A DNA stretch of 64,000 bases from Candidatus Omnitrophota bacterium (GTDB lineage: Bacteria > Omnitrophota > Gorgyraeia > B26-G9): NCBI GenBank assembly GCA_043814605.1, contig JBDRJV010000013.1, forward strand, positions 34,471 through 98,470, read 5' to 3'. Each line of letters opens with the position of its first letter. The stretch's first letter is position 1. Shown here piece by piece: positions 30,817-52,225 of this stretch. Made by a program: the position numbers and the translations under genes. The notes below the pieces were generated by a model. That model saw only the letters and a program-made list of their open reading frames with translations. It was not told the DNA's origin and did no database searches.

Positions 30817-32778
30817 TTAAATAGCCTGTTCAAAAAACTGGTTTGATTGGAAATTGACAACCTTCGAAAAACTATTCAGTGGAATTTTATTATCCACAAA
30901 TAATTTTTCTAGATACTGCTGTGTATACTTAAGCATCTTTTCGGGGAATTTTTTTCTTCTTAATATCTGCAGAGTATTTGTCTCTTCCCATTTTAAAGAA
31001 CCTGGACGTAATTTATAATCGCGTATTGCTTCTCCATCTTGGGTTGATCCTTCCTTAAAGTGCATATTTTTAATATTTTTAATTTCATCAACTAAAGTTA
31101 TAATACTCAAATCCTGCGTAGCTACCAGTCCCAACACATTCTGTTCAGCAAGAAGCTTTATTGCTGCTTTCTGGGTAACTGTTCTGTTTGTCGGTTCTGT
31201 CCCTTCAAACATCTCATCCCCCACAAAAGCAAAAATTGTCTTTTTCCCCTGCATTGCAGCCATAATATGATCAAGCATACGGTCAGATTCAACATCAAAT
31301 TTACTCATATCCTCAGCCAAAGAATCTTCGGTATTAATATGAGTACGGATATATACAGGAGTAAAATCCATGTTTTCTGCTGTGACAGGACTTCCAATCT
31401 GAGCCATAACTAAAAGCAATGCATACATTTTTAAAATAGTTGTCTTCCCGTTCATGTTCGGACCAGTAATGGTTAAAAAACTAGTTTCATCAGGATCAAG
31501 AACAATAGAGTTTGGCTCGATTAATTGCCTTAAAACATGTAGGGGGTGTATCGCATTTTGAATATTAACGTAAGGATTATCCTGTTCTAGAACTTTAGGA
31601 AATATATTAATTTGATGGTCTACTGCATTCTGCGCTATTGCTGTATAAGCATCTAATTCTGCTACTGCCCCAAAAATTCGTTTAAATTCATCCTCTTTTT
31701 TATTAAGCAACCGGCTTAATCCCTCATAACTTCTATTCTTAATACAATCTACCAAGCTAAAAGCATGTTTTTTATCTCTTAAAGCACTTAAAGTTTCTAC
31801 AATCTCTTCTAACAAAGGTAATCCCTCTATTTGAGGATATTCTTTTAAAACTTTCTTAAGTAAATATGCTTTATCTGTAAAATTAAGTAGGGCTGATTTT
31901 GCGTCCTTCATCTCCATAAGCATAGGGAAAAAAACAAATATCGCAAACATGGATATTGCAAAAATAAATATGTTGATATGTAAAGATACTGCTAATATGC
32001 CTAAATAAACATACATTATTTTAACAAAACTCTTGATTGACGGCTTTTTCTTTAAAATATTAAAAGCATACTTATCATCTGTATTTTTTAAAATTTCATT
32101 TAATGATTGCCGCAGTTCTTCATTTTTTATCAAAAAAGCCACTACTTTTTGACGCTGTTTTATATGTTCTGTATCTAAAAAAGGATTGCATAATAACCGC
32201 TTAAACCGCAGATCTCCAAGATAAGTCTTTGTCCGGTTAAAATAATTATACAAAGAAAATTCTCCTTTACTGATTATCTCTAAATCTAAAATATCACGTA
32301 TACTTAAGGGATCATGTAAAAATTCTTTTCGGTAAACAATTCCGCCATTTTCAAGCGCAGGATAATCTTCTACTTGTGGTTTTTTGTACAAGGCGGTTTT
32401 TCCTTTTCCTTTATCAATCTTTAGAGGAGCTGGCATATGTTTCTCTAATTCGTTCTGTAAATCAATTTCTCCTTCTTTTTTGCGAAATTTATACCAAGTT
32501 GTACCCACCATAAACGCAAATATAAAAATAGATATATTAATCAATCCGAAAGTCATTATTTGCATAACTAATAATGCTATCGTGCCAGACGAAATAAAAG
32601 CAAATTTCAAATATAAAAATGATACAGAAACCATCATTAACCCAGGAATCAAAAAAAACCATTTCTTTTTCTTTTTTGTCTGAGTAATATGATCTTTTAA
32701 CTTTTTCTCAGCTCGAGCAATATCATTCATTTTTAATTCTGTAACTTCTTCAGCAGTTAACGCAAGTAATTTGTCCAT
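30817..32778 (-). CDS. MutS-related protein (MutS domain V ATPase) with N-terminal TM segments
   Basis: ITGPNMNGKTTILKMYALLLVMAQIGSPV Walker A; DE...Walker B. Confidence 0.75.
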   Translation of the reverse strand: MDKLLALTAEEVTELKMNDIARAEKKLKDHITQTKKKKKWFFLIPGLMMVSVSFLYLKFAFISSGTIALLVMQIMTFGLINISIFIFAFMVGTTWYKFRKKEGEIDLQNELEKHMPAPLKIDKGKGKTALYKKPQVEDYPALENGGIVYRKEFLHDPLSIRDILDLEIISKGEFSLYNYFNRTKTYLGDLRFKRLLCNPFLDTEHIKQRQKVVAFLIKNEELRQSLNEILKNTDDKYAFNILKKKPSIKSFVKIMYVYLGILAVSLHINIFIFAISMFAIFVFFPMLMEMKDAKSALLNFTDKAYLLKKVLKEYPQIEGLPLLEEIVETLSALRDKKHAFSLVDCIKNRSYEGLSRLLNKKEDEFKRIFGAVAELDAYTAIAQNAVDHQINIFPKVLEQDNPYVNIQNAIHPLHVLRQLIEPNSIVLDPDETSFLTITGPNMNGKTTILKMYALLLVMAQIGSPVTAENMDFTPVYIRTHINTEDSLAEDMSKFDVESDRMLDHIMAAMQGKKTIFAFVGDEMFEGTEPTNRTVTQKAAIKLLAEQNVLGLVATQDLSIITLVDEIKNIKNMHFKEGSTQDGEAIRDYKLRPGSLKWEETNTLQILRRKKFPEKMLKYTQQYLEKLFVDNKIPLNSFSKVVNFQSNQFFEQAI

Positions 32779-33313
32779 ACTGGGATTAATTGCTGGCTTA
32801 TTTTTTCTTGAAGAAAAACTATCTCAATGGTTTGCTAAGAATTATTCTTTGGTTAATATCTATTACTACGGGGGAATCCATTCTGAAAAATCATTCTTTG
32901 ATTCTCACTCCGAATATAAAAACAATACCAGCTCTGTAAACCATTTTCTCCTCAAACAATACAGAAAAGATAAAGAAAGATTTTTCAAAAAATTAAAAAG
33001 CTATAATATTATTGTGAGACAAAAAGAAATCTGGAGTGTTTATGATAATACAAAAGGAACTTATAACCTAAAATGTAATTGTGATGTTGAACTAACAGTT
33101 GATGCTCTCGACAGAATTCAAGATTATCAACAAATAATTCTTTGTAGTGGAGACGGAGATTTTGCGAGATTAATACGCTACTTAAAAAATAAAGGTAAGA
33201 TTACAACCGTTTTATCAATAAAGCAAAGAACTTCTGGAATACTCAAAAAGGCTACAAATAACTTGATTTATCTTCATACGCTAAAACACTTAATCGAGTT
33301 TACCCGTCCTTAA
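32771..33313 (+). CDS. NYN-domain (LabA-like PIN-fold) protein, possibly N-terminally degenerate
   Basis: CDVELTVDALDRIQDYQQIILCSGDGDFARLIRYLKNKGKITTVLS matches NYN C-terminal half. Confidence 0.5.
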   Translation: MSILGLIAGLFFLEEKLSQWFAKNYSLVNIYYYGGIHSEKSFFDSHSEYKNNTSSVNHFLLKQYRKDKERFFKKLKSYNIIVRQKEIWSVYDNTKGTYNLKCNCDVELTVDALDRIQDYQQIILCSGDGDFARLIRYLKNKGKITTVLSIKQRTSGILKKATNNLIYLHTLKHLIEFTRP

Positions 33314-33711
33314 ACACAGAAAGCTCTACTTTCGTAGAGCCTCCGCATTCGCCATCACAAGATGGCTTTAGTCCTGTAATATAAGTATATCATAGTATAC
33401 TATTTAATTCAATTATGTCAATTAATTTTTTACTATGCTAACGACAATTATTATTTTACACTTGATTACAAATAGTTAATCCCCAAAAAGACAAGTTTCT
33501 CAACTAGTTGATAGCTATCAAATAAGATAATTTTGTGAAAACATTTAATTCTTCTGTTTATCTATAAATCCTTTCAGCAATTTTACTGAAGTAGCATAGA
33601 ATAGGACGAAATAGGGGACGTAGTTAGATAATTAGATATTAATTTCCCCGCCCCAATTTTCTTAACTTAATATATCTTAATAATACTCCTGAGATGGAGA
33701 GATTTCAAGAT

Positions 33712-33860
33712 TATTCTGATTCCCACTCGGACTCGGCGCCTCCGCCTACGCAGAAGCTCCGGCTCCGGTCGGCCAGTCAACCGCTGACAGCCGGTCTTCG
33801 ACTTACGGCCTTTTCCTCCCTTAGGTCGGCGCGGTCTCAATTCGAGTCCTCACAGCAGTG
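33712..33860. repeat. GC-rich ~145-bp repeat Z (copy of 42215..42357), ends with tRNA-Asn T-arm-like ttcgagtcctc
   Basis: cgctcggactcggcgcctccgcctacgcag...ggtcggcgcggtctcaattcgagtcctcacagca ~93% identical between copies. Confidence 0.8.
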
Positions 33861-34128
33861 AAAACCAAACAATAATAAAAAACCCCTCACATTTCTGTGA
33901 GAGGTTTTTTATTATTGGCTCCCCGTGCCCCCTAAAAGACCGAACTTTTCTGTGATTTTTTACGCAGGACTTACACTTTCACGACAAGGAAATAGGTTTA
34001 AGGTAGTCTTTCCAACCGAATAAGATTATGATTAAATGTAAATTTTTAAAAGGTTTTTATTGAAATTGCTTTCAGTAAGGTAGACATCCTTTCTGATGTC
34101 CTTTTATTTTTATACATAGATACGTCAT

Positions 34129-36999
34129 CTAACTCTGCTTATGCATGTCTATACCTTGCATAAGTTCATACGCTATATTTCCACTCACCAAACGCATAAT
34201 ACTTTCTTCCGAACTGCCAAAACTTAGTAAATTAATACTGCCATACCAAACAATCTTTTGATCTATAACCGCAAATTTCTGATGTATCTTCGGCCGGAAC
34301 ATGATAGTAATCCCGACAGCTTGAAGTACTTTGCATGCCTGTTGTGACGCTAATCTATTGTCTTCTTTTAACTCCTCGGCTGGTCTCGTTATTATTGTAA
34401 TTCCAACCTGTCTGGTTAAGGGATCAGAGAGATTTTGCATAATTTGATTAACCCGTCGCTGAGTAATAAAAGGACTCACAATTACAATTTCTTTTTTTGC
34501 ACTTATTAAGTCATTGCAATAAACAGGGAAAAATGAGCTCTTATCAAAAATAATATCAGTAGTTTGCCCAATACTTTCCCCTTGAGACTTATACCCGATA
34601 GCAGCATAACCAGTTAATCTTTTAGCATACATTTTCTCAAGCATTCTAACTCTGACATCAACATAATCGTAAATTTGAACATGTTTTTTAGTCTCATATA
34701 TTCTATGCAGTCTTCCCGCGTATTGATGCAAAGTTCCTTTCCATGAAATAGGCATAGCAAGAAACAATGTATCCAATCGAGGAGCATCAAACCCTTCTCC
34801 AATAAACGTACCTGTTGCAACTATGGTTAACTGCTTTTCCTGAGACATTGCGGCTATCCGCCTCAATAAGTCATTTGTTTCTTTAGCCCCTAAGCCCCCT
34901 CTCAATACGACAACATCAGGAATTTTCATTGCCAATTTTTTTGCCAGCAGTTCCACATGTGCTGTCCGTCCTGTAAGTACCACGCAATTCCGGCCATTTT
35001 CATAACTATTAATCACATCATCAACAATCAATTGATTGCGCATTTCATCAACTGTCATCTCAGCGTATAATTCTTGAATAGATACTGTTGTATCATCAGA
35101 GGCCGCGATCCTGAAACCGGTGAATCGTGGGATAACGTAATGCTCGAAAGGCCTTTGTTCCGCTTGTTTTTTTGCGTCAACTTTATAACGGATCGGCCCG
35201 CAATGCATAAATAGTATAGGCTGGTGACCATCCTGTCTTGTAGGAGTTGCCGTTAAGCCATACACATATTTAGCGTTCACCTTTTTAAGTATCTGCTCAA
35301 AACTGAATGCCGGAATATGATGGCACTCATCAACAATGACCATTCCGTAGTTTTTGACAGTTTCCTTTACCTCTCCAGCATCATTTAGTGACTGCATTAT
35401 GGCAATATCAATAATACCCGACAGAGCATCTCTTCCTCCGCCCAATTGGCCAATAACACTTTGTTTTTTCTTTCTCCCTCTCTTTTTTTCTGGAACAGGT
35501 AATTTTTCATCAATGATTAAGAACTCCAGCAACCGGACAATCCATTGTAATAATAACTGATGGCGATGAACTAAAATAAGCGTGTTTACTTTTCGCTCGG
35601 CAATCAGCTTAGCGGCAATAACTGTTTTACCAAACGCTGTCGTTGCGGAAAGAATCCCGTTATTGAATTTCAGGAGCTCATCAACTGCTTGCTGTTGCTC
35701 TTCCTTTAAGACTCCTTTGAATTTAACCTTAATATCCTTTCCGCGATTAGTCTGATCATCCCAACACATTTCCACAGCATACTCATTAAGTAAAACATTA
35801 ATATCCTCCTCGCAACCTCTCGGCAAACACAAATAATTATTCTTATCTTCAAAACATGAGATTACTCGCGGTTTATTATAGGTAGGCATTCTCATTGCTT
35901 GAGCTTTGTAAAATTCCGGATTTCTAAAAGCAGATAACCTTTTCAAAGCATTTAAGGCGCGCGAAGAAAATCCCTCTTTATTAATATACAGCATGTCTGC
36001 TTTTACAATAACCGTCTGCTTAGGATGGCCTGCTTTGGTCAATCTGATCCTGTTTTTCAACCACGGCTTTTCTTCATCTTCAGCTTCTCTAAGCACGCCC
36101 AATTCATTACCCGCGCAAAGTTTACTTATGAATGATTCTACGGTATCTCCTGAGAGCTTCTTTATCAAGGACAAAAATCCCCATTGATCTTCATAGGGGT
36201 TAAATTTCTCATCAATAAAAATACTGTGACCGGCTTTCCTGGCATCCAGTTGAAGTGGAAGTGCGATTAAATTTCCCATACCGCCTTTCGGCATTGTATC
36301 TTGATTTGGGAAAAACCTGTCATATGATGCAAAGGCTATTTCATGGCGTTTATTCATCGCATAGGTGATCACTGCGCTGCCAAATTTTCTGGCCAGTGCT
36401 GCAGGCAGGCACTCTTCAAAAAGAAACCACACATGCGCGCCATTTCCTGATCGTGAACGTTCTACCGCCATGGGAATATTGAATTCTCGACAAACTTCTC
36501 TTACTACCGAAACATCCTTCTCCCATCCGGTATCATCAAAATCAATCACCAGAAAATAACAATTTTCATCTGGAAGCAGCGGATAAATGCCGATAACCAG
36601 ACCGCCTCGCAAATGATTTTCAATGGCCTGCGCATCTAATTGTGCGTACAATTTATATTCACAATCTGCACACCTGGTCTTTGGTTTACCACATATTACT
36701 CTTTGCCATTCATTCAAACAGACCGGAGAATATCCTGACCTTCCCGCTTTATTCTGCCAGCGCTTAGCATATACATCATCACGGCCTCTAAATAAACTGC
36801 GAAATAACTGTATTTTTTCATTATTTGATAGCTGTTGAGAAATCAAAGGATTTTTTACAATAGTTGGCGAAGTAGGGGGCAGGCTTGATAGCTTTTTAAT
36901 AAGCTTATGTTTCTTTTCTTTTAACGATGAAATCTGAGTATCAATATCATTTATTTCATTTACAATATTCTTCTTGATATCGTCATAACTATAATTCAT
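34129..36999 (-). CDS. Three-domain fusion: N-terminal AEP primase-polymerase (PrimPol)-like domain + SF2 helicase (ResIII/DEAH) + C-terminal PLD-family nuclease
   Basis: AEP motif I LVIDFDD, motif II SGNGAHVWFLF, Zn-finger C..C...C..C; helicase Walker A ATTAFGKTV and VIVDECHH; PLD HxK motif KIHQKFAVID..GSINL. Confidence 0.65.
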   Translation of the reverse strand: MNYSYDDIKKNIVNEINDIDTQISSLKEKKHKLIKKLSSLPPTSPTIVKNPLISQQLSNNEKIQLFRSLFRGRDDVYAKRWQNKAGRSGYSPVCLNEWQRVICGKPKTRCADCEYKLYAQLDAQAIENHLRGGLVIGIYPLLPDENCYFLVIDFDDTGWEKDVSVVREVCREFNIPMAVERSRSGNGAHVWFLFEECLPAALARKFGSAVITYAMNKRHEIAFASYDRFFPNQDTMPKGGMGNLIALPLQLDARKAGHSIFIDEKFNPYEDQWGFLSLIKKLSGDTVESFISKLCAGNELGVLREAEDEEKPWLKNRIRLTKAGHPKQTVIVKADMLYINKEGFSSRALNALKRLSAFRNPEFYKAQAMRMPTYNKPRVISCFEDKNNYLCLPRGCEEDINVLLNEYAVEMCWDDQTNRGKDIKVKFKGVLKEEQQQAVDELLKFNNGILSATTAFGKTVIAAKLIAERKVNTLILVHRHQLLLQWIVRLLEFLIIDEKLPVPEKKRGRKKKQSVIGQLGGGRDALSGIIDIAIMQSLNDAGEVKETVKNYGMVIVDECHHIPAFSFEQILKKVNAKYVYGLTATPTRQDGHQPILFMHCGPIRYKVDAKKQAEQRPFEHYVIPRFTGFRIAASDDTTVSIQELYAEMTVDEMRNQLIVDDVINSYENGRNCVVLTGRTAHVELLAKKLAMKIPDVVVLRGGLGAKETNDLLRRIAAMSQEKQLTIVATGTFIGEGFDAPRLDTLFLAMPISWKGTLHQYAGRLHRIYETKKHVQIYDYVDVRVRMLEKMYAKRLTGYAAIGYKSQGESIGQTTDIIFDKSSFFPVYCNDLISAKKEIVIVSPFITQRRVNQIMQNLSDPLTRQVGITIITRPAEELKEDNRLASQQACKVLQAVGITIMFRPKIHQKFAVIDQKIVWYGSINLLSFGSSEESIMRLVSGNIAYELMQGIDMHKQS

Positions 37000-37008
37000 A
37001 ATTTAAAG

Positions 37009-38454
37009 TTAAAGGACTTCCCAATACCCGCCTTTTGCCGGGCCGATGCGCTTTAATAATTTTGCCTTCTTTAGTTTGGCAATAGCATTTTCTACTGTCC
37101 TTTGGGATAAGTTGGTTGCACCAGCTATTTCATGTGTTTTGATGAAATAGTTTTTCTGAATACATCGCAAAACTTTCTCCGCATTTTCTCCGCATTTTCT
37201 CCGTATTTCCACCGTAATTTTTAACTCTTTTCCCGCAACCTTTTTAACAGGCTTATCTTGTGGTTTATCTTTTTTCTCCAAATAAAATGTTATCTTATAA
37301 TAGTCAAAATCTCCTTCGACTTTAGGTTTTCCTTCATAATAAGCAGCCCAGCCCTTAAACATCTTATGAAAGCCTGAGCCGATATTCTCGGAAAGTTTTA
37401 TTGTCCTAAAAATCCTTGCGATGGTATTGTTTCTCGGCATGGAGAATTCTTCTTTTAAGATATACTTTATGTCCTTAGGTAATGAGCCCGGATTGAAAAA
37501 CTCTATCCTGTTGGAAAGAATTCTTATTCTCGGTTTGGCATTTGAAAAATAATCAGTGTGCATAAGAAGATTAACAAGAGCTTCGCGGATAGCTATAAAC
37601 TGCGGCGGATTCTCATCCCGAGACATTCCTTTAAGCTTAAATGGAATATTAATATGTTTTTTTAATTTTTCAAGAATTGAAAAATAATACTCATACAAAT
37701 TCTTTTGAACAGGCATACGATATTCATATCGGTTATCCGCATCAGAAAAAGAAGTGCCCGACACCTCAAGATATTCCACCCTGAAATCTGAAGCTGCCGC
37801 ATTTACGATTTCTTCTGTGCCAAAAACAAGCGCTCCTCCCACAGTTACTTTGCCCTTTATAATGATCCTCATAAGCTCAAGCATTTTCTCTGCCGAAACA
37901 TCATTATATCGGTGCTCGGGGTCAACCGATTCCAAATATGTCCTGTATCGGGAAATAGTTTCTTTATCAAGATCTTTAAATCTATACCCGGTAAGTTCTT
38001 CATCTTTTTTATCAAAAGAAGAATTCCTGTATAATGCATCTATCTCTTCTTTCGTTGCCCGCTGATCGCCGCTGCCTGTACGAACAAACGTGTTTGCAAG
38101 AGAGTTGAAATAAATTGGCTTGTCTTTGGAATACACAGAAGGAATACGAAAAGCCAATATTGTATTCCCTGCAATTGAATATTTCTTGGACTCAACTGTT
38201 ATTTTTTTATTAAATTTATCGCCTCTTAACGTGGTAAGAAAATCCTGCTCTATTTTTTCCGGATTATTAACTCCAACAACAGAATATTCCTTGCCTTTCT
38301 TTGCTATGCCAAAAATCAGCCAGCCTCCGGCTGTATTGCAAAAAGCGCTTACTGTTTCCCATGCGTTTTTAGGAATAGCAGATTTGGCCTCCTTTACCTC
38401 AAAGTCCTGCCATTCAATATCCTGCAACCTCTTAATCAATTCCTGTTTTTTCAT
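37009..38454 (-). CDS. Schlafen/AlbA_2 (divergent AAA-4) DNA-binding domain + HATPase_c_4-like + C-terminal wHTH transcriptional regulator
   Basis: FEVKEAKSAIPKN...NTAGGWLIFGI; C-terminal RTVENAIAKLKKAKLLKRIGPAKGGYWEV. Confidence 0.6.
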   Translation of the reverse strand: MKKQELIKRLQDIEWQDFEVKEAKSAIPKNAWETVSAFCNTAGGWLIFGIAKKGKEYSVVGVNNPEKIEQDFLTTLRGDKFNKKITVESKKYSIAGNTILAFRIPSVYSKDKPIYFNSLANTFVRTGSGDQRATKEEIDALYRNSSFDKKDEELTGYRFKDLDKETISRYRTYLESVDPEHRYNDVSAEKMLELMRIIIKGKVTVGGALVFGTEEIVNAAASDFRVEYLEVSGTSFSDADNRYEYRMPVQKNLYEYYFSILEKLKKHINIPFKLKGMSRDENPPQFIAIREALVNLLMHTDYFSNAKPRIRILSNRIEFFNPGSLPKDIKYILKEEFSMPRNNTIARIFRTIKLSENIGSGFHKMFKGWAAYYEGKPKVEGDFDYYKITFYLEKKDKPQDKPVKKVAGKELKITVEIRRKCGENAEKVLRCIQKNYFIKTHEIAGATNLSQRTVENAIAKLKKAKLLKRIGPAKGGYWEVL

Positions 38455-38606
38455 AATTAATCAATCTTAATCCTATGTATTAATAAACTTTTCTGCGGCT
38501 TTTACCTGTGCCTGAAATGGATATCCATGATAAAATTTTATCATCAACTTAAAAAAGATTCAATTTATTTCATCTAAAAACGCAACAATAGCAAATAGAT
38601 ATGATT

Positions 38607-38825
38607 TTACTCTTCGCTATGCTTTTTATTTTTATTCTTTTCATCTTCGCTTTCTTTTTCCTTTTTGCTTTTAAAATAAAGATATGCCCCTTTGGCGAGC
38701 AGTTCGCCAATTCTATTGATCCGTTCATCTATTGTTAAACAAAAATATTTATTCATCACAACCCCTGTAAAATCATATTTGTTTAAAAAGTTCGAATTTT
38801 CATCGACTCCCTCAATTGCCCTCAA
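38607..38825 (-). CDS. Small hypothetical protein
   Basis: ORF only. Confidence 0.2.
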   Translation of the reverse strand: MRAIEGVDENSNFLNKYDFTGVVMNKYFCLTIDERINRIGELLAKGAYLYFKSKKEKESEDEKNKNKKHSEE

Positions 38826-39161
38826 TATCCGAACTTTTTATATCTCTTCCCAAATGCACATTATAACTCATTATATTACAGCAAGTAAGCATAAATAAAA
38901 AGCCCCTCCCATTTCTGTGAGAGGTTTATTATTTTGGCTCCCCGTATTACCTGTCCCCAGCGCTTGATTTGTAAGCAAATCAGCATGGGGGACGGACGAG
39001 TTTCGCAACTGGATACAACTGAATAAAATACCGCAAGAGATAAACTGCCTCTAGATTATAAGAATGGCAAATGAACTGGAAAAATTAAATATAATTCGAC
39101 TCTGAGCGAAGTGATTAAGCATTATTGTCGACAAAGAATTTTGAAAATGAAAAATGAAAAT

Positions 39162-40217
39162 TTATATAGATTTTTCCGGACTTAATGAATTAATTATTTC
39201 TTTAGATTGTTTCCTGAGCCTAATAGTACTCTCTTGCTCTTTGTCAACCCCTAAAGCTTTGAACAGACTTATATTTTTGTACCAAACAGCCGTTCTCCCT
39301 AAGCCATCATCGAGCGTTATTTGCTGCGCTCCACTCTCGACTGCTGCAAGAAAGTTGCGCCGCAAATTTTCGCTATGCCAATCATTCCACATCTCTTGAT
39401 CCAGCCTCACAAATCCAACGTCAAATAAAGGAGCAAAAACTCCTTCTACTTTTCTCCTACTACCCAAACTATTGCCCTTATCAAAGATTATCTGATTTTT
39501 ATACATTCCCTTTTTCCGATCATAATTTGTCGAATATTCAATATAAACCCTATCTAAAGGATTGTACACATAGTTTCTTCCAGCTAGCAAAAACAAATCC
39601 GGATTTTTTTCCATATCCAGAAAGTCAAAGGCGGACGGTAAATACGAACCACGATTTTTAAATTTATAAGGATGGTTGTGCAGATTAAAAACCCCTCTGC
39701 CTTTAAATTGGTCCAGCACCGACAAAAGGAGCTTTTCTCCTGCCACAAACCCTTCTCTCTCAGATTCGTTTATAGCAAACAAAATATATTTATCCCCATG
39801 TCTTACCATAAAAAAGAAATATTCTTTATCGACTGTATCCATAAAATTTCTTATTTCCTTTTCGAGCGGCAATGCTTTGAATATGTATACAGAATTTGGC
39901 GGGTCTTTTACGTGGTCAAACAGGTCCTTAATGCCTACAAGTTTAACAAAATCGTTCTTGTCGACAATCTTTAACTCATTTTTTTTGAGGTCGCTAATCA
40001 TTTTCTGCAAAGACTCTGAATCTTCTTGAATTTTATCGAAGGATTCTGCAACATCTACTAACGAAATAGCGGGCGCTAAAAAACTTTGATCCGTTCCTTG
40101 CTCCAATGATGCCGCAAACAATCCATTCGTATGCGCAATCGCTTGAATTAACAACCAGATAAATACGCTACGCCATTCTAATCTCTTAATTATAATCCTA
40201 TGCTTGTTCCAATCCAA
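39162..40217 (-). CDS. Hypothetical protein with N-terminal signal/anchor
   Basis: ORF with hydrophobic N-terminus; no recognised motif. Confidence 0.3.
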   Translation of the reverse strand: MDWNKHRIIIKRLEWRSVFIWLLIQAIAHTNGLFAASLEQGTDQSFLAPAISLVDVAESFDKIQEDSESLQKMISDLKKNELKIVDKNDFVKLVGIKDLFDHVKDPPNSVYIFKALPLEKEIRNFMDTVDKEYFFFMVRHGDKYILFAINESEREGFVAGEKLLLSVLDQFKGRGVFNLHNHPYKFKNRGSYLPSAFDFLDMEKNPDLFLLAGRNYVYNPLDRVYIEYSTNYDRKKGMYKNQIIFDKGNSLGSRRKVEGVFAPLFDVGFVRLDQEMWNDWHSENLRRNFLAAVESGAQQITLDDGLGRTAVWYKNISLFKALGVDKEQESTIRLRKQSKEIINSLSPEKSI

Positions 40218-49308: not shown

Positions 49309-50089
49309 TAGTAATGATTTTCCATCGTTTATTGATAGAGCCTTTGCGAGAATCCGATAAAGAAATAAGCGAAGTATTCTTCACGCATTTTTCTATCGGT
49401 TTTAGCATATTGTCTGAAACGCCAGCCAGCTCGAGATTAAAACCAATTGCCTTTTTCGTTTTAACTGCCGAGAATTTAATAGTATATTCAATCAGCTTTT
49501 TTATATCGCATTTCTTTTCTGAGACAAATCGCCTTAAGATTTCACCAGCTGCTTTTATACCGCCAACAGGGCGATTAAAATAAATAAGATCGATCAAAGT
49601 CCTCTCTTTTGAGCTGACAATTATTTCTTTTCCCTTTATGTTTATTTTTTCTAAACCATAAAACCTGTTTGATGGTATTTTTACAAATTTAAATGATACC
49701 CCCGCTATCGTTTTTTTCATACAACGAGTGGTATTAAGAACATAAACTATCTGAAACTGCTGATCAGTAAAACCATAATAATTAAACATAGTTGAATAAC
49801 CGATATAATAATTATCCTTTGGGAAGAATATTGGCGGGATTAAAAATTCACTCACTCTTCGGCCGGTTGGCACAGACTCTAAAGGCACATAGATATAAAC
49901 TCCCCTTTTAACGGGTTTCAAGATTCCCTTCTTTTTCAGATTATAAACCAGCTGCTTTCGATAAGAAAAATCCCCAGGCAAAAAGGAATCCAGCTCTTGC
50001 GCCGTTACAATATCCTTCTCCTCATAAGAGAGCCGGGCAACAATTTCAGCCTCTTTTTGGTTCAAAGCACTTATTGTATTTTTCTTCAT
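49298..50089 (-). CDS. AbiEi-family antitoxin/transcriptional regulator
   Basis: Position, 11-nt overlap with AbiEii, ~260 aa size, N-terminal wHTH-like region. Confidence 0.6.
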   Translation of the reverse strand: MKKNTISALNQKEAEIVARLSYEEKDIVTAQELDSFLPGDFSYRKQLVYNLKKKGILKPVKRGVYIYVPLESVPTGRRVSEFLIPPIFFPKDNYYIGYSTMFNYYGFTDQQFQIVYVLNTTRCMKKTIAGVSFKFVKIPSNRFYGLEKINIKGKEIIVSSKERTLIDLIYFNRPVGGIKAAGEILRRFVSEKKCDIKKLIEYTIKFSAVKTKKAIGFNLELAGVSDNMLKPIEKCVKNTSLISLSDSRKGSINKRWKIITNDT

Positions 50090-50330
50090 AATAAGTAACT
50101 CCTACGGTTACCTTTGTATAACATTTATACATAAGCTAGAATACCATATTTTTGGTTATTGTCAATACTATTATTTAAGCCTGAATTCCATATTTTCATT
50201 TTCGAAAATACCTTCAGAAGGGATTTACAGGAAGGAAAATTACAACAAAACAACTTAAAAGGCCCTAAAAATACAAAGAGCGAACAACGCAATGAAGCAT
50301 TATTCGCTCAGAGTATGAATTGGCTCCCCT

Positions 50331-50555
50331 ACCCATAGTTTTGATTCTCAAAACAGGCATGGGCACAGGCGCGAGGACTCGGCTACTACACTCCCAACAT
50401 CGTGTTGGTCTATTGCGTAGCCTCCCCTACATTCACTAAATTTGCAGTCCACGCCCAGTACCGTCCCGCCTTGGCGGGACTGGTTCTGGGCTGCAAATTT
50501 GAGCTCCCACTTGGTCGCTCCGTTCACTCCGCTTCGATTCCTAGCCCGGGATGAT
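50331..50555 (-). ncRNA. ~235-nt GC-rich structured repeat element, copy G
   Basis: See 40309..40545; lies between AbiEi promoter region and tRNA-Asn terminator. Confidence 0.4.
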
Positions 50556-50557
50556 GC

Positions 50558-50599
50558 AAAAAAAAATCGGGAGTCCGTTTTGGACTCCCGTATTTTTTT
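50558..50599 (-). terminator. Intrinsic terminator immediately after tRNA-Asn CCA
   Basis: aaaaaaaaa-cgggagtcc-gtttt-ggactcccg-tattttttt. Confidence 0.8.
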
Positions 50600-50640
50600 T
50601 GGCTCCCCCGCGAGGACTCGAACCTCGGACAAATTGGTTA

Positions 50641-51212
50641 CAGGTAATCTCTAAGTTTCCTTAAAGCCTGGACTATCTCATCTCCATATTTGCAAAAGCA
50701 AGTTTAGGAGCTGGGCGCTTCGTACCGCTCTCGCGGAACTACTTCCTTCCGGAATAGTCTCTGCACCTTTCCGCCAAAAAACTTGGCGGACTTGGCTCAG
50801 GATTCCCTTATGGTTTTCTAACTTACCACTTAGGCTTTCCTGAGTTCACCCAGTTTTTCATCTTAATGTTTCCATTAAGCGCTGCTATTTTTGGCATGAA
50901 TTTCTCGATGACAATTAGCACAAACTAATTCACATTTTTCAATTTCATCCTTAACTTTTTTCCAAGAACGAGTATACCCTTTTTGGGATATACCAAAATC
51001 CTTGTCTGATTCGTTAATATGATGAAATTCTAATGCTTCAGGACAATTATTGTAACCGCAAATTTTACATTTTCCGCCTTTATATTCAACAGCTTTAATG
51101 CGTAAATTTTTACGGCGTTTGCGCACAGCTTCGATTAAATAATCTCTTCTATCCGCATATTTCCTTTTGTCCTTAATTAGCGCCAAAAGCACCTCCTTTT
51201 CACACCCTGACT
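50641..51212 (-). mobile_element. Group-I-like intron with HNH homing-endonuclease ORF inserted in tRNA-Asn anticodon loop
   Basis: Exon 1 ends in U, intron ends in G; 3' part has P7-like CAGAGACUA...UAGUUCC and GNRA (GGAA) P8-like hairpin; ORF with RBS inside. Confidence 0.5.
50875..51192 (-). CDS. HNH endonuclease (intron-encoded, GTG start)
   Basis: CKICGYNNCPEALEFHHINE...CANCHREIH. Confidence 0.8.
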   Translation of the reverse strand: MLLALIKDKRKYADRRDYLIEAVRKRRKNLRIKAVEYKGGKCKICGYNNCPEALEFHHINESDKDFGISQKGYTRSWKKVKDEIEKCELVCANCHREIHAKNSSA

Positions 51213-51385
51213 ACAGCCAATCGCTCTACCAACTGAGCTACAGGGGAACCGATAAATCAGCTATTAGCTCATGGCTTATAGCTCATAGATAAAAAGAACA
51301 ATACTTCTAAAAATCATGGGGGAACCTAAAAACAGTCTTAAGTTTTAAGACTTGAGTTTTAAGTTATAAAAAGAACAAATTACAA

Positions 51386-52225
51386 CTATTCTAACTTTTC
51401 ATCAATACTGGGAAGATCGGTCTGCTCATTAGCAGCCTGAGGTTCCGCTTGATTAAGAATCGCAAATAATAATGTTAAAATTACACAGCTGGCAAATACA
51501 CTGAAAAAAGCATTGAGAGTTGATGTTAATAAAATATTTATGATTGATAATCCCCAGCCTTTTACGACATTTCCAACCAACACACCCAAAATATTAACAA
51601 CCAAAGAAAGCCCACCCAGACAAAAGCCTAAAATTATAAATACAAGAACTGCTTTGCCAAAATATTTTTTAATAAGCCCAAAACCTTTTTTTAAAGAATC
51701 GATTGCCTTACCATCTTGAGATACAGCTAAATACTGGCTCATTAATAACGGCATTGCTACAAGAAAAGCTATAATTAAAGTGAGGAATAAAATAATACCG
51801 CCAATAATATTAAAAAATATGTTATTCCCTCCGCCTAAAGCAATAAATATTCCGCTTAAAAATGCACCAATAAACCAAATAATAAGAGAAATCATCGCTC
51901 CCATAATGTTTATTGCCACAAGCCGGGTAAAAAATTTAACACAATTTCCCGGAAACTCATTTAAATCAACATTGTTACCCTTTATCCCGGAAGTACAGGC
52001 CGCAATTATACCGCCTTCCATTAAAAACCAAAGTAACATTAATACTACAAATAATATTAATAATATTCCTGTAATACTGGTTATCTTCTCCGGAGTAGGT
52101 TCAACCCCAATAACCATAAGCAGCCCGGTCGCAGTTACAAAATTAAAGGCAAAGACAACAACCATGACTGAAAGCAAATTTTTTGAAGCTTCCCAACTCT
52201 TTTTAACCATTTCAATTACGCCCAT
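51386..52225 (-). CDS. Polytopic membrane protein, unknown function
   Basis: Multiple TM helices; Gly-rich loops. Confidence 0.4.
   Translation of the reverse strand: MGVIEMVKKSWEASKNLLSVMVVVFAFNFVTATGLLMVIGVEPTPEKITSITGILLILFVVLMLLWFLMEGGIIAACTSGIKGNNVDLNEFPGNCVKFFTRLVAINIMGAMISLIIWFIGAFLSGIFIALGGGNNIFFNIIGGIILFLTLIIAFLVAMPLLMSQYLAVSQDGKAIDSLKKGFGLIKKYFGKAVLVFIILGFCLGGLSLVVNILGVLVGNVVKGWGLSIINILLTSTLNAFFSVFASCVILTLLFAILNQAEPQAANEQTDLPSIDEKLE

What the first reader, a model, noticed from the sequence alone, without database searches (positions are those of the whole stretch)
50600..51247. tRNA-Asn(GUU) split in the anticodon loop by a 572-nt group-I-like intron carrying an HNH endonuclease
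Reading the minus strand gives a tRNA 5' half (51247->51213) with a textbook D-arm (GCUCAGUUGGUAGAGC). The 3' half (50640->50600) has a T-arm plus CGGGGGA-G-CCA. Joined, they make a perfect 76-nt tRNA-Asn with anticodon loop CUGUUAA. The intervening 572 nt begin after a U, end with a G, and contain a GTG-initiated, RBS-preceded HNH ORF (CKICGYNNC...CANCHREIH). Its 3' third has P7/P8-like elements (CAGAGACUA...UAGUUCC; UCC-GGAA-GGA). Bacterial tRNA group I introns are known for Leu, fMet, Arg and Ile, but to my knowledge not commonly for Asn, and they rarely carry an ORF. If this is the only tRNA-Asn copy, the cell depends on splicing. The CCA end is followed directly by a strong terminator, and the island upstream appears to have accreted at this tRNA.
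Basis: partly seen in the sequence, partly recalled or inferred. Interest (0 to 1): 0.8.

Follow-up and report, generated by a model that had tools for sequence, protein, structure and literature searches.

The report
HNH-carrying group I intron in tRNA-Asn
The only asparagine tRNA gene in this stretch of an uncultivated (Omnitrophota-type) bacterium is split in its anticodon by a self-splicing group I intron that carries its own DNA-cutting (HNH) gene. This is a real mobile element, but of a kind first catalogued in 2020 and shown to splice in 2025-26, so it is a new member rather than a new discovery.

Summary
On the minus strand, 51247-51213 plus 50640-50600 join into a 76-nt tRNA-Asn(GUU). 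The 572-nt insert lies between anticodon positions 35 and 36, follows a U and ends in G. Rfam's group I model scores it at 72 bits (cut-off 50). An explicit fold (P2-P9, P7 pseudoknot, P9.0) is 97.7% paired across 38 homologues, with compensatory changes in 33 of 48 pairs. The ~103-aa HNH gene sits in the P1 loop, and its last codons overlap the guide sequence and P2.

The novelty claim fails. tRNA-Asn 35/36 introns were catalogued in 2020 (Williams, bioRxiv). Nakagawa et al. (mSystems 2026) showed that they self-splice in vitro, are IA-type and sometimes carry HNH genes.

New here:
- The HNH-bearing form is widespread outside Patescibacteria (at least 565 species genomes). All 78 resolvable sequences (77 related loci plus the window) are tRNA-Asn split at 35/36.
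- Near-identical intron-less alleles exist.
- Host tRNA similarity and intron type are decoupled.
- Phage relatives of the HNH gene sit free-standing next to tRNA-Asn genes.

Verdict: new member of a known kind, moderate interest.

The parts
51213..51247 (-). tRNA-Asn(GUU) exon 1: acceptor 5' strand, D-arm, anticodon stem 5' strand and C32 U33 G34 U35. It ends in the U that forms the G.U pair in P1.
   Evidence: ARAGORN on the joined and unspliced sequence. It is 97% identical (35 of 36 aligned bases) to the matching part of the intron-less genes L081 and L082.
50641..51212 (-). 572-nt group I intron inserted between anticodon positions 35 and 36. It has the IA-type architecture (P7.1/P7.2 present).
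   Evidence: Rfam RF00028 at 72.3 bits. Covariation-supported fold. P7.1/P7.2 covary in a 20-member subclass.
51192..51198 (-). Shine-Dalgarno sequence AAGGAGG for the intron ORF.
   Evidence: Read directly from the sequence. It lies 5 nt before TTG 51186.
50875..51186 (-). HNH homing-endonuclease gene in the P1 loop (L1): 103 aa from TTG 51186, or 105 aa if GTG 51192 is used. The stop codon TAA is at 50877..50875, inside P2.
   Evidence: Pfam HNH and phrog_2255 at 1.3e-30. 2,279 homologues at 65-79% identity, with every invariant residue present. AlphaFold2 model pLDDT 86.5.
50881..50885 (-). Internal guide sequence GCAGC. It pairs with the exon 1 end GCUGU (51217..51213) to form P1, with G50885 opposite U51213.
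   Evidence: A GCAGC in the expected position just 5' of P2 was located in all 78 resolved loci. The pairing was read from the sequence.
50862..50879 (-). P2 hairpin CUUAAUG-GAAA-CAUUAAG. The ORF stop codon lies in its 5' strand.
   Evidence: All 6 counted P2 pairs show compensatory changes.
50711..50853 (-). P3 (50853..50847 with 50717..50711). It encloses P4 (50844..50839 / 50801..50796), P5, P6 (50795..50794 / 50767..50766), P6a (50790..50785 / 50775..50770) and the P7 5' strand (50761..50755, bulged A at 50760).
   Evidence: the count of structure pairs on the MAFFT alignment A2: each of these helices is 98-100% paired and has compensatory changes.
50725..50754 (-). P7.1 (UUCC-GGAA-GGAA, 50754..50743), the GUAG linker and P7.2 (CCGC-GAGA-GCGG, 50736..50725). 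This peripheral insert lies between P7 and P3'.
   Evidence: It is the 35-nt insertion relative to the Rfam model. Both stems covary across 20 loci, e.g. UCCC/GGGA, UUCC/GGAA, GAGC/GCUC, GACU/AGUC.
50641..50710 (-). P8 (50710..50707 / 50685..50682), J8/7, P7 3' strand UAGUCC (50675..50670), P9.0 (50669..50667 / 50644..50642), P9 hairpin with GAAA loop (50666..50649) and omega-G at 50641.
   Evidence: P8, P9 and P9.0 all covary, and P7 is invariant in 38 of 38 sequences.
50600..50640 (-). tRNA-Asn exon 2: U36 A37 A38, anticodon stem 3' strand, variable loop, T-arm, acceptor 3' strand, discriminator G and encoded CCA.
   Evidence: ARAGORN. It matches the intron-less genes L081 and L082.
50558..50590 (-). 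Intrinsic terminator (CGGGAGUCC-AAAAC-GGACUCCCG plus a U-run) 8 nt after CCA.
   Evidence: scan_promoters_terminators.

Best explanation
This is a functional, intron-containing tRNA-Asn(GUU) gene. The primary transcript runs to the terminator at 50590..50568. It carries a 572-nt group I intron of IA-type architecture between anticodon nucleotides U35 and U36.

The guide sequence GCAGC (50885..50881) pairs with the exon 1 end GCUGU to form P1, with the U.G wobble at the 5' splice site. An external guanosine attacks there. The terminal G (50641), positioned by P9.0, then occupies the G-site in P7, and the exons are joined into a normal 76-nt tRNA.

The P1 loop holds a ~103-aa HNH endonuclease gene with its own Shine-Dalgarno sequence. 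Its last codons and stop codon overlap the guide sequence and P2, so on any one RNA molecule translation and ribozyme folding should exclude each other. The enzyme most likely cuts intron-less tRNA-Asn genes around GGCTGT|TAACC and so drives homing of the intron.

Shown here: the gene anatomy, the conserved and covarying ribozyme fold, the conserved ORF, the existence of intron-less alleles and the wide cross-phylum spread. Shown by others for homologous Patescibacteria introns: precise in vitro self-splicing at 35/36. Inferred: splicing at this locus, the DNA target and the homing activity.
For: - ARAGORN calls tRNA-Asn i(36,572) and a canonical cloverleaf on the joined exons.
- Rfam Intron_gpI scores 72.3 bits over the full model.
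- An explicit fold (P2-P9, P7 pseudoknot, P9.0) on a structure-blind MAFFT alignment of 38 homologues is 97.7% paired, against 29-44% when partners are slid. 33 of 48 pairs carry double changes, and 0 of 500 shuffles reach the observed values.
- The window has every invariant core nucleotide and every invariant HNH residue.
- After applying the U-1/omega-G rule, the HNH family resolves to a tRNA-Asn gene split at 35/36 in all 78 resolvable sequences (77 related loci plus the window). The ORF lies inside the intron in 76 of them and beside the gene in two.
- Intron-less genes 75/76 identical to the spliced tRNA exist. One has a homologue of the same upstream ORF.
- The window's 12 nearest exon relatives all carry a different ribozyme class.
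- Homologous tRNA-Asn 35/36 introns self-splice precisely in vitro, and an omega-G-to-C mutant blocks exon ligation (PMC13011429).
Against: - No RNA data exist for this organism, so splicing is inferred.
- P1 has only 5 base pairs, and the three exon variants in the family are not compensated in the guide sequence, so P1 is supported by conservation rather than covariation.
- P10 is at best 2 bp.
- No promoter was recognised within 130 nt upstream.
- The HNH match to Pfam is marginal (21.9 against 21.4 bits), and no solved structure matches significantly.
- Nuclease activity and target are untested.
- Whether the genome has a second tRNA-Asn is unknown.
Confidence: 0.9

Rival explanations
1. 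The intron splices, but the HNH protein is no longer (or never was) a homing endonuclease. It could be inactive cargo, a splicing helper (maturase) or a nuclease with another target, in which case the intron is inherited essentially vertically.
For: [quoted passage not shown] The Pfam score is marginal. No solved homologue is available to model DNA binding. L065 carries a copy with an in-frame stop, which shows that decay does occur.
Against: Protein identity is 65-79% across more than 15 phyla, with 34 invariant residues that include the CxxC...HH...N...CxxC-H metal and catalytic set. Host tRNA and intron class are decoupled. Intron-less alleles exist. Free-standing relatives sit immediately next to tRNA-Asn genes in 56 of 79 phage loci (p=1e-21), which points to a DNA-level association with that gene.
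Confidence: 0.1
2. The locus is a disrupted pseudo-tRNA. A mobile intron landed in a redundant tRNA-Asn copy that is no longer needed or spliced.
For: Only 64 kb of the genome can be seen, so another tRNA-Asn cannot be excluded. The tRNA lies at the edge of a variable defence island with an insertion at its 3' end.
Against: The exons are 75/76 identical to intron-less genes and fold into a canonical cloverleaf with the G73 discriminator and CCA. All ribozyme core positions and the ORF are intact. A dedicated terminator follows the gene. None of the 80 related loci has a second tRNA-Asn within 3 kb. The literature reports that intron-plus and intron-less copies with the same anticodon rarely coexist in one genome.
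Confidence: 0.04
3. The gene is really tRNA-Thr(UGU) with the intron two bases further 5' (position 33/34). ARAGORN calls about 30 of the homologous loci this way.
For: Shifting both boundaries by 2 nt also gives a 7-nt loop (CUUGUAA). ARAGORN labelled many homologues Thr(tgt/cgt).
Against: With that boundary the intron would end in C rather than G. The guide sequence GCAGC pairs with GCUGU, not with the shifted exon end. The tRNA body matches intron-less tRNA-Asn genes 75/76. The same miscall is documented, and was corrected experimentally, in PMC13011429.
Confidence: 0.01

Closest known systems
tRNA-Asn(GUU) group I introns at position 35/36 of Patescibacteria (Nakagawa et al., mSystems 2026, PMC13011429; 'Asn.4Ug' class of Williams 2020, bioRxiv 10.1101/2020.01.27.920355)
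   Same: Same host gene, same insertion site (35/36), U-1 and omega-G, IA-type architecture and HNH (PF01844) ORF in some members. Patescibacteria members of the same HNH family are in my locus set (L013, L029, L037, L043, L052, L053, L064, L072, L074, L079).
   Different: The host is an Omnitrophota-type MAG. That paper found endonuclease-bearing 35/36 IA introns only in Patescibacteria among 4,934 complete genomes, and its main text does not mention Omnitrophota. The one Omnitrophota entry in the stored part of its supplement is an fMet 33/34 IC3 intron. Splicing of this particular intron is untested.
Classical bacterial tRNA group I introns, subgroup IC3 (cyanobacterial tRNA-Leu(UAA) 34/35, tRNA-fMet 33/34, Agrobacterium tRNA-Arg(CCU) and Azoarcus tRNA-Ile(CAU) 36/37)
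   Same: A self-splicing group I ribozyme in the anticodon loop of a bacterial tRNA. P1 is formed with the anticodon-stem/loop exon sequence.
   Different: Different tRNA and position. The window's intron has a P7.1/P7.2 insert that IC3 introns lack. It carries an ORF, whereas most IC3 tRNA introns are about 250 nt and ORF-less.
I-Ssp6803I in the Synechocystis tRNA-fMet intron (PD-(D/E)XK homing endonuclease; from my own knowledge, and PF11645 entries in PMC13011429)
   Same: A homing endonuclease gene carried inside a bacterial tRNA group I intron, presumed to target the anticodon region of the intron-less gene.
   Different: A different nuclease superfamily (PD-(D/E)XK against HNH), a different tRNA and site, and a different ribozyme subgroup.
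Phage group I introns with HNH endonucleases (I-HmuI/I-HmuII of SPO1/SP82, I-TevIII of RB3; from my own knowledge) and free-standing phage homing endonucleases in tRNA clusters (T4 SegB, PMC2330249)
   Same: IA-type ribozymes that carry HNH genes. Phage relatives of the window's HNH are free-standing inside tRNA arrays, as SegB is.
   Different: Those introns interrupt protein-coding genes. SegB is GIY-YIG, not HNH. Sequence similarity of the window's protein to solved HNH enzymes is limited to the catalytic motif (McrA 6ghc, E=0.016).

Membership tests
Group I intron (Rfam RF00028) | Covariance-model score at or above the curated gathering score | tested here: met
   72.3 bits against 50, E=2e-16, model positions 1-253 of 253.
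Group I intron (Rfam RF00028) | Conserved core helices P3-P4-P5-P6 and P7-P8-P9, supported by base-pair covariation | tested here: met
   97.7% of 1,822 cells paired, 33 of 48 pairs with double changes, slid controls 29-44%.
Group I intron (Rfam RF00028) | 5' splice site after a U that forms a U.G wobble with the internal guide sequence in P1 | tested here: met
   Exon GCUGU(51213) pairs with GCAGC (50885..50881). A GCAGC was located in the expected position in all 78 loci. The pairs are invariant, so there is no covariation evidence.
Group I intron (Rfam RF00028) | Terminal guanosine (omega-G) at the 3' splice site, positioned by P9.0 | tested here: met
   G at 50641. In 78 of 78 loci the intron ends in G before TAA(C/G)(C/G). 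P9.0 covaries in 3 of 3 pairs.
Group I intron (Rfam RF00028) | Guanosine-dependent self-splicing activity | not testable with these tools
Subgroup IA | Extra helices P7.1/P7.2 between the P7 5' strand and P3' | tested here: met
   A 35-nt insert relative to the Rfam model. Two hairpins separated by GUAS, with both stems covarying across 20 loci.
Subgroup IA | Best score with subgroup-specific covariance models (Nawrocki et al. 2018 set, as used by Nakagawa et al.) | not tested
   Those models are not available here. The paper assigns 25 of 28 introns at 35/36 to IA.
Subgroup IC3 (classical tRNA introns) | P3' follows P7 directly, with no P7.1/P7.2 | tested here: not met
   The window has the P7.1/P7.2 insert. 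A sister class B of 31 loci lacks it.
tRNA-Asn 35/36 intron class (Asn.4Ug) | Host is tRNA-Asn(GUU), with the intron between anticodon nucleotides 35 and 36 | tested here: met
   ARAGORN i(36,572). The joined exons are tRNA-Asn, 75/76 identical to intron-less tRNA-Asn genes.
HNH endonuclease (Pfam PF01844) | Profile match above the cut-off, and presence of the catalytic His, Asn and metal-binding Cys/His residues | tested here: met
   21.9 bits against 21.4, which is marginal. phrog_2255 at 1.3e-30. C45, C50, H57, H58, C91, N93, C94, H95 and H99 are invariant in 40 sequences including the window. The top fold hits are all HNH nucleases, but none is significant (E>=0.28).
Homing endonuclease (functional definition) | Cleaves the intron-less allele at or near the insertion site and promotes intron transfer | not testable with these tools
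   The support is indirect: intron-less alleles exist, host and intron are decoupled, the family spreads across phyla and phage copies are linked to tRNA-Asn genes.

The most novel reading that the evidence does not exclude
This HNH lineage is a dedicated tRNA-Asn-gene homing endonuclease that alternates between two lifestyles. It is free-standing beside tRNA-Asn genes in phage tRNA arrays (and occasionally in bacteria, next to ORF-less introns: L062, L065). It is also intron-borne in the P1 loop of bacterial tRNA-Asn introns. Phages would act as vectors that have spread it across more than 15 bacterial phyla and onto at least three different ribozyme scaffolds. That contradicts the published inference that tRNA introns move rarely, and it would offer a natural series for testing the 'endonuclease invades a protective intron' model of how mobile introns arise.
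Probability: 0.4. Interest if true: 0.6.

Novelty: new member of a known kind. Interest (0 to 1): 0.38.

Why it matters
For this locus, the practical point is annotation. Standard tRNA finders report no tRNA-Asn here, so the genome would look incomplete or appear to lack an essential tRNA. The intron's ORF is also often mis-extended into the ribozyme. If this is the only copy, translation of every Asn codon depends on RNA self-splicing.

More broadly, the comparative data extend the 2026 description. The endonuclease-bearing form is not confined to Patescibacteria and occurs in at least 565 species-level genomes across many phyla. Intron-less alleles are available as targets, and phage-borne relatives are tied to the same tRNA gene. 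This points to much more horizontal movement of tRNA introns than was concluded from complete genomes alone.

Tried and rejected
- ARAGORN's Thr, Tyr and Pro labels for about 37 homologous loci were rejected. Re-deriving the boundaries with the U-1/omega-G rule, anticodon-stem pairing and acceptor pairing makes all 78 resolvable sequences tRNA-Asn(GUU) at 35/36. L011, L023 and L032 are masked or cut by contig ends.
- A covariation test of P1 using the rare exon variants (GCCUGU in L037 and L043, CGCUGU in L072) found no compensating change in the guide sequence, so it is uninformative.
- A search for a tRNA-derived att repeat found no second copy of the 25-nt tRNA 3' end within 3 mismatches, only 12-mers.
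- Rfam permissive scans of 49900-51500 and of four phage loci gave nothing beyond the intron and ordinary tRNAs. The 190-206-nt 'introns' that ARAGORN called in the phage tRNA-Asn genes of L087, L104 and L154 are therefore unconfirmed.
- The look-up of encoding contigs for P0001 found no record, so the source contig could not be retrieved.
- The PDB sequence and fold searches gave no significant relative of the HNH protein.
- The paper's stored supplement is truncated. Whether its tables list an Omnitrophota tRNA-Asn intron could not be settled. The single 'Omnitrophota' hit is an fMet 33/34 IC3 intron.

Full report
**1. The observation**

Reading the minus strand, 51247..51213 is TCCCCTGTAGCTCAGTTGGTAGAGCGATTGGCTGT and 50640..50600 is TAACCAATTTGTCCGAGGTTCGAGTCCTCGCGGGGGAGCCA. 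Joined, they give a 76-nt cloverleaf that ARAGORN calls tRNA-Asn(gtt). Run on the unspliced DNA with introns allowed, ARAGORN returns tRNA-Asn i(36,572).

With default settings ARAGORN finds no tRNA in the whole 64-kb window. Ordinary annotation would therefore miss this gene.

Rfam's Intron_gpI model matches 50926..50649 on the minus strand at 72.3 bits (gathering score 50, E=2e-16) over the full model. It is the only Rfam family found in the window.

**2. Anatomy of the intron**

The guide sequence GCAGC (50885..50881) pairs with the last five exon bases GCUGU, placing G50885 opposite U51213, which is the canonical U.G at the 5' splice site. A GCAGC in the same position, immediately 5' of a GNRA-capped P2, was located in all 78 resolved homologous loci.

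I wrote an explicit structure (P2, P3, P4, P5, P6, P6a, P7 as a pseudoknot, P8, P9.0 and P9) in window numbering. I then counted it on a MAFFT alignment of 38 homologues that was not fitted to any structure:
- 97.7% of 1,822 cells form standard pairs, against 29-44% when 3' partners are slid by 1-3 columns.
- 33 of 48 pairs show changes on both sides.
- 0 of 500 shuffles reach any observed measure.
- P7 is invariant, including the bulged A.

Between the P7 5' strand and P3' the window has a 35-nt insert that the Rfam model lacks. In a 20-member subclass it resolves into two hairpins separated by GUAS. Both stems covary (UCCC/GGGA, UUCC/GGAA, GAGC/GCUC, GACU/AGUC, GGGC/GCCC). This is the P7.1/P7.2 pair typical of subgroup IA, not of the classical IC3 tRNA introns.

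The real P7 3' strand is UAGUCC at 50675..50670, and P8 is at 50710..50682.

**3. The ORF**

The stop-to-stop ORF 50875..51192 matches Pfam HNH marginally (21.9 bits against 21.4) and PHROG HNH families strongly (phrog_2255, 1.3e-30).

The GTG at 51192 overlaps the AAGGAGG Shine-Dalgarno sequence (51198..51192). TTG at 51186, five bases after it, gives MALIKDKRKY..., identical to the NCBI-annotated 103-aa P0001 from a Candidatus Omnitrophota MAG.

The ORF lies in the P1 loop. Its last codons (AAU AGC AGC GCU UAA) run through the guide sequence, and the stop codon is in the 5' strand of P2. By inference, a translating ribosome and P1/P2 folding exclude each other on one RNA molecule.

In many homologues the annotated protein runs on into the ribozyme. 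The shared tails 'LQLPRETVVEKSGEFRE' and 'GNPEPSP' are translations of IGS-P2-P3-P4 and of P5/P4'. They reflect RNA constraint or over-extended gene calls, not protein domains.

The AlphaFold2 model is confident (pLDDT 86.5). Neither sequence nor fold searches of the PDB give a significant relative. The best hits are HNH nucleases only: McrA at E=0.016, and Cap5, Cas9 HNH and T4 endonuclease VII at E>=0.28.

**4. Relatives**

The protein has 2,279 database relatives at 65-79% identity in very different uncultivated phyla.

A scan of one genome per species found at least 565 encoding loci, and 80 were fetched. They come from Omnitrophota, Elusimicrobiota, Nitrospirota, Patescibacteria, Bacteroidota, Acidobacteriota, Clostridia, Melainabacteria, Margulisbacteria, Aerophobetes, Acetothermia, Actinomycetota and others.

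ARAGORN labelled the hosts Asn, Thr, Tyr or Pro. Every 'Thr' call has the form GGCT|gt...nG|(T/C)GTAACC. Applying the U-1/omega-G rule, together with anticodon-stem and acceptor pairing, makes all 78 resolvable sequences (77 related loci plus the window) tRNA-Asn(GUU) split at 35/36. The other three loci are masked or cut by contig ends. This two-base miscall is documented in the literature.

Rfam confirms group I cores in representatives of every class.

The ribozymes fall into three layouts that share the same insertion site, guide sequence and HNH family:
- A1, with the P7.1/P7.2 pair (20 sequences, including the window).
- A2, with a different single long hairpin at that position (26).
- B, with no insert (31).

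**5. Evidence of mobility**

- A metagenome scan for the exact spliced junction found two intron-less tRNA-Asn genes (L081, L082) that are 75/76 identical to the window's spliced tRNA. L082 has a 41%-identical homologue of the window's upstream 279-aa ORF in the same place.
- The window's 12 closest exon relatives (88-94%, Omnitrophota-type) all carry class B ribozymes. Its own A1 ribozyme and HNH are closest to L038, L010 and L014, whose exons are only 81-85% identical.
- Cross-phylum protein identity of 65-79% is itself hard to reconcile with vertical descent.

**6. What is already known**

Williams (bioRxiv 2020) expanded bacterial tRNA group I intron types from 4 to 21. According to Nakagawa et al., that list includes the Asn '4Ug' class.

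Nakagawa et al. (preprint 2025; mSystems 2026) reported the following:
- Precise GTP-dependent self-splicing in vitro, abolished by an omega-G-to-C mutation.
- 25 of 28 introns at 35/36 classified as IA.
- Four tRNA-Asn introns with PF01844 HNH genes.

They state that endonuclease-bearing 35/36 IA introns were found only in Patescibacteria among 4,934 complete genomes, that horizontal transfer is probably infrequent, and that draft genomes might change this.

The window's element is therefore a new member, in a new host phylum, of a described class. My locus set supplies the draft-genome extension they anticipated.

**7. Surroundings**

Upstream on the minus strand lie dnaX, recR and an unknown ORF.

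The terminator after CCA is confirmed. Comparison with L081 shows that the tRNA's native 3' flank and terminator now lie at 50320..50255, behind a pseudo-3' end GGGGAGCCA (50329..50321). About 270 nt (50599..50330) have therefore been inserted at the tRNA 3' end.

Most of that insert is one copy of a ~240-nt direct repeat (50315-50553 and 40313-40544, 96-99% identical). The two copies bracket a 10-kb block of defence genes: MNT/HEPN, a Schlafen-type helicase fused to an S24 peptidase domain, MazG-like and AbiEii/AbiEi. Further conflict-system genes lie beyond it.

No integrase and no full tRNA-derived att repeat were found.

**8. Verdict**

The claim that it is unusual is superseded by recent literature.

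Still untested are splicing at this locus, whether it is the sole tRNA-Asn gene, and the endonuclease's activity and target.

Novelty: new member of a known kind. Interest is moderate. It rests mainly on the breadth of distribution and on the phage-linked free-standing relatives seen in passing.

Noticed in passing
L083-L162 (IMG/VR viral contigs): Free-standing relatives of the HNH protein (48-69% identity, at least 579 matches) sit inside phage tRNA arrays: 70 of 80 loci have three or more tRNAs. An uninterrupted tRNA-Asn is the immediate neighbour in 56 of 79 loci. It accounts for 60 of 143 flanking tRNAs against an 11% background (binomial p=1.4e-21), usually 7-130 nt away. Those phage tRNA-Asn anticodon arms mostly read RACTGTTAATY, whereas intron-bearing bacterial genes read GGCTGT|TAACC.
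   Followed up: partly
L062:2526-3294 and L065:3001-3672: Two bacterial loci have a short ORF-less group I intron (251 and 238 nt; Rfam 74 and 85 bits) at 35/36 of tRNA-Asn. The HNH gene is free-standing beside the tRNA gene, about 150 nt downstream in L062 and directly upstream in L065, where it carries an in-frame TAG. These may be intermediates in endonuclease gain or loss.
   Followed up: partly
window 40313-40544 and 50315-50553: A ~240-nt GC-rich non-coding direct repeat (96-99% identical, about 10,005 bp apart) brackets a 10-kb defence-gene block. It has no Rfam match at E<1, no tRNA or tmRNA call, and is absent from the 80 related loci. It contains fragments that resemble the tRNA-Asn T-arm and acceptor 3' end (CGAGTCCTCGCG ... 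GGGGAGCCAA). Its identity (att region or non-coding RNA) is unknown.
   Followed up: partly
window 50255-50599: Comparison with the intron-less locus L081 shows that the tRNA's native 3' flank and terminator lie at 50320..50255, behind a pseudo-3' end GGGGAGCCA (50329..50321). About 270 nt, comprising a new terminator and repeat copy R1, were therefore inserted at the tRNA 3' end.
   Followed up: partly
window 30817-50089: A dense run of conflict and defence genes lies 3' of the tRNA: AbiEi/AbiEii, MazG-like, Schlafen group-3 helicase fused to an S24 peptidase domain, MNT/HEPN pair, Schlafen AlbA_2 protein, a 956-aa AEP-TOTE primase-helicase-PLD protein and a MutS-like protein. No integrase was detected.
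   Followed up: partly
L001-L080 (ribozyme parts): One HNH family and one insertion site are combined with three ribozyme layouts. A1 has P7.1/P7.2 (20 sequences, counting the window). A2 has a single long hairpin with a conserved UGAGGA...CCAAUAA interior (26). B has no insert (31). This suggests scaffold exchange or repeated gain and loss of the peripheral domain.
   Followed up: partly
P0016, P0022, P0073, P0104 and others in alignment A1: Many database 'proteins' of this family have C-terminal extensions (LQLPRETVVEKSGEFRE..., GNPEPSP...) that are translations of the ribozyme (IGS, P2-P5). These are over-extended gene calls or read-through into conserved RNA, not protein domains.
   Followed up: yes
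L123:3001-3441: In one phage tRNA array the HNH gene is followed directly by a 121-nt Rfam tRNA match (47 bits), which ARAGORN calls tRNA-Asn with a 48-nt insertion. No group I signal was found. ARAGORN also-206-nt inserts in the tRNA-Asn genes of L087, L104 and L154, and these are unconfirmed too.
   Followed up: partly
window 1-64000: Default ARAGORN finds no tRNA or tmRNA gene in 64 kb. The intron-split tRNA-Asn is invisible to standard annotation, which would affect tRNA-based estimates of genome completeness.
   Followed up: yes
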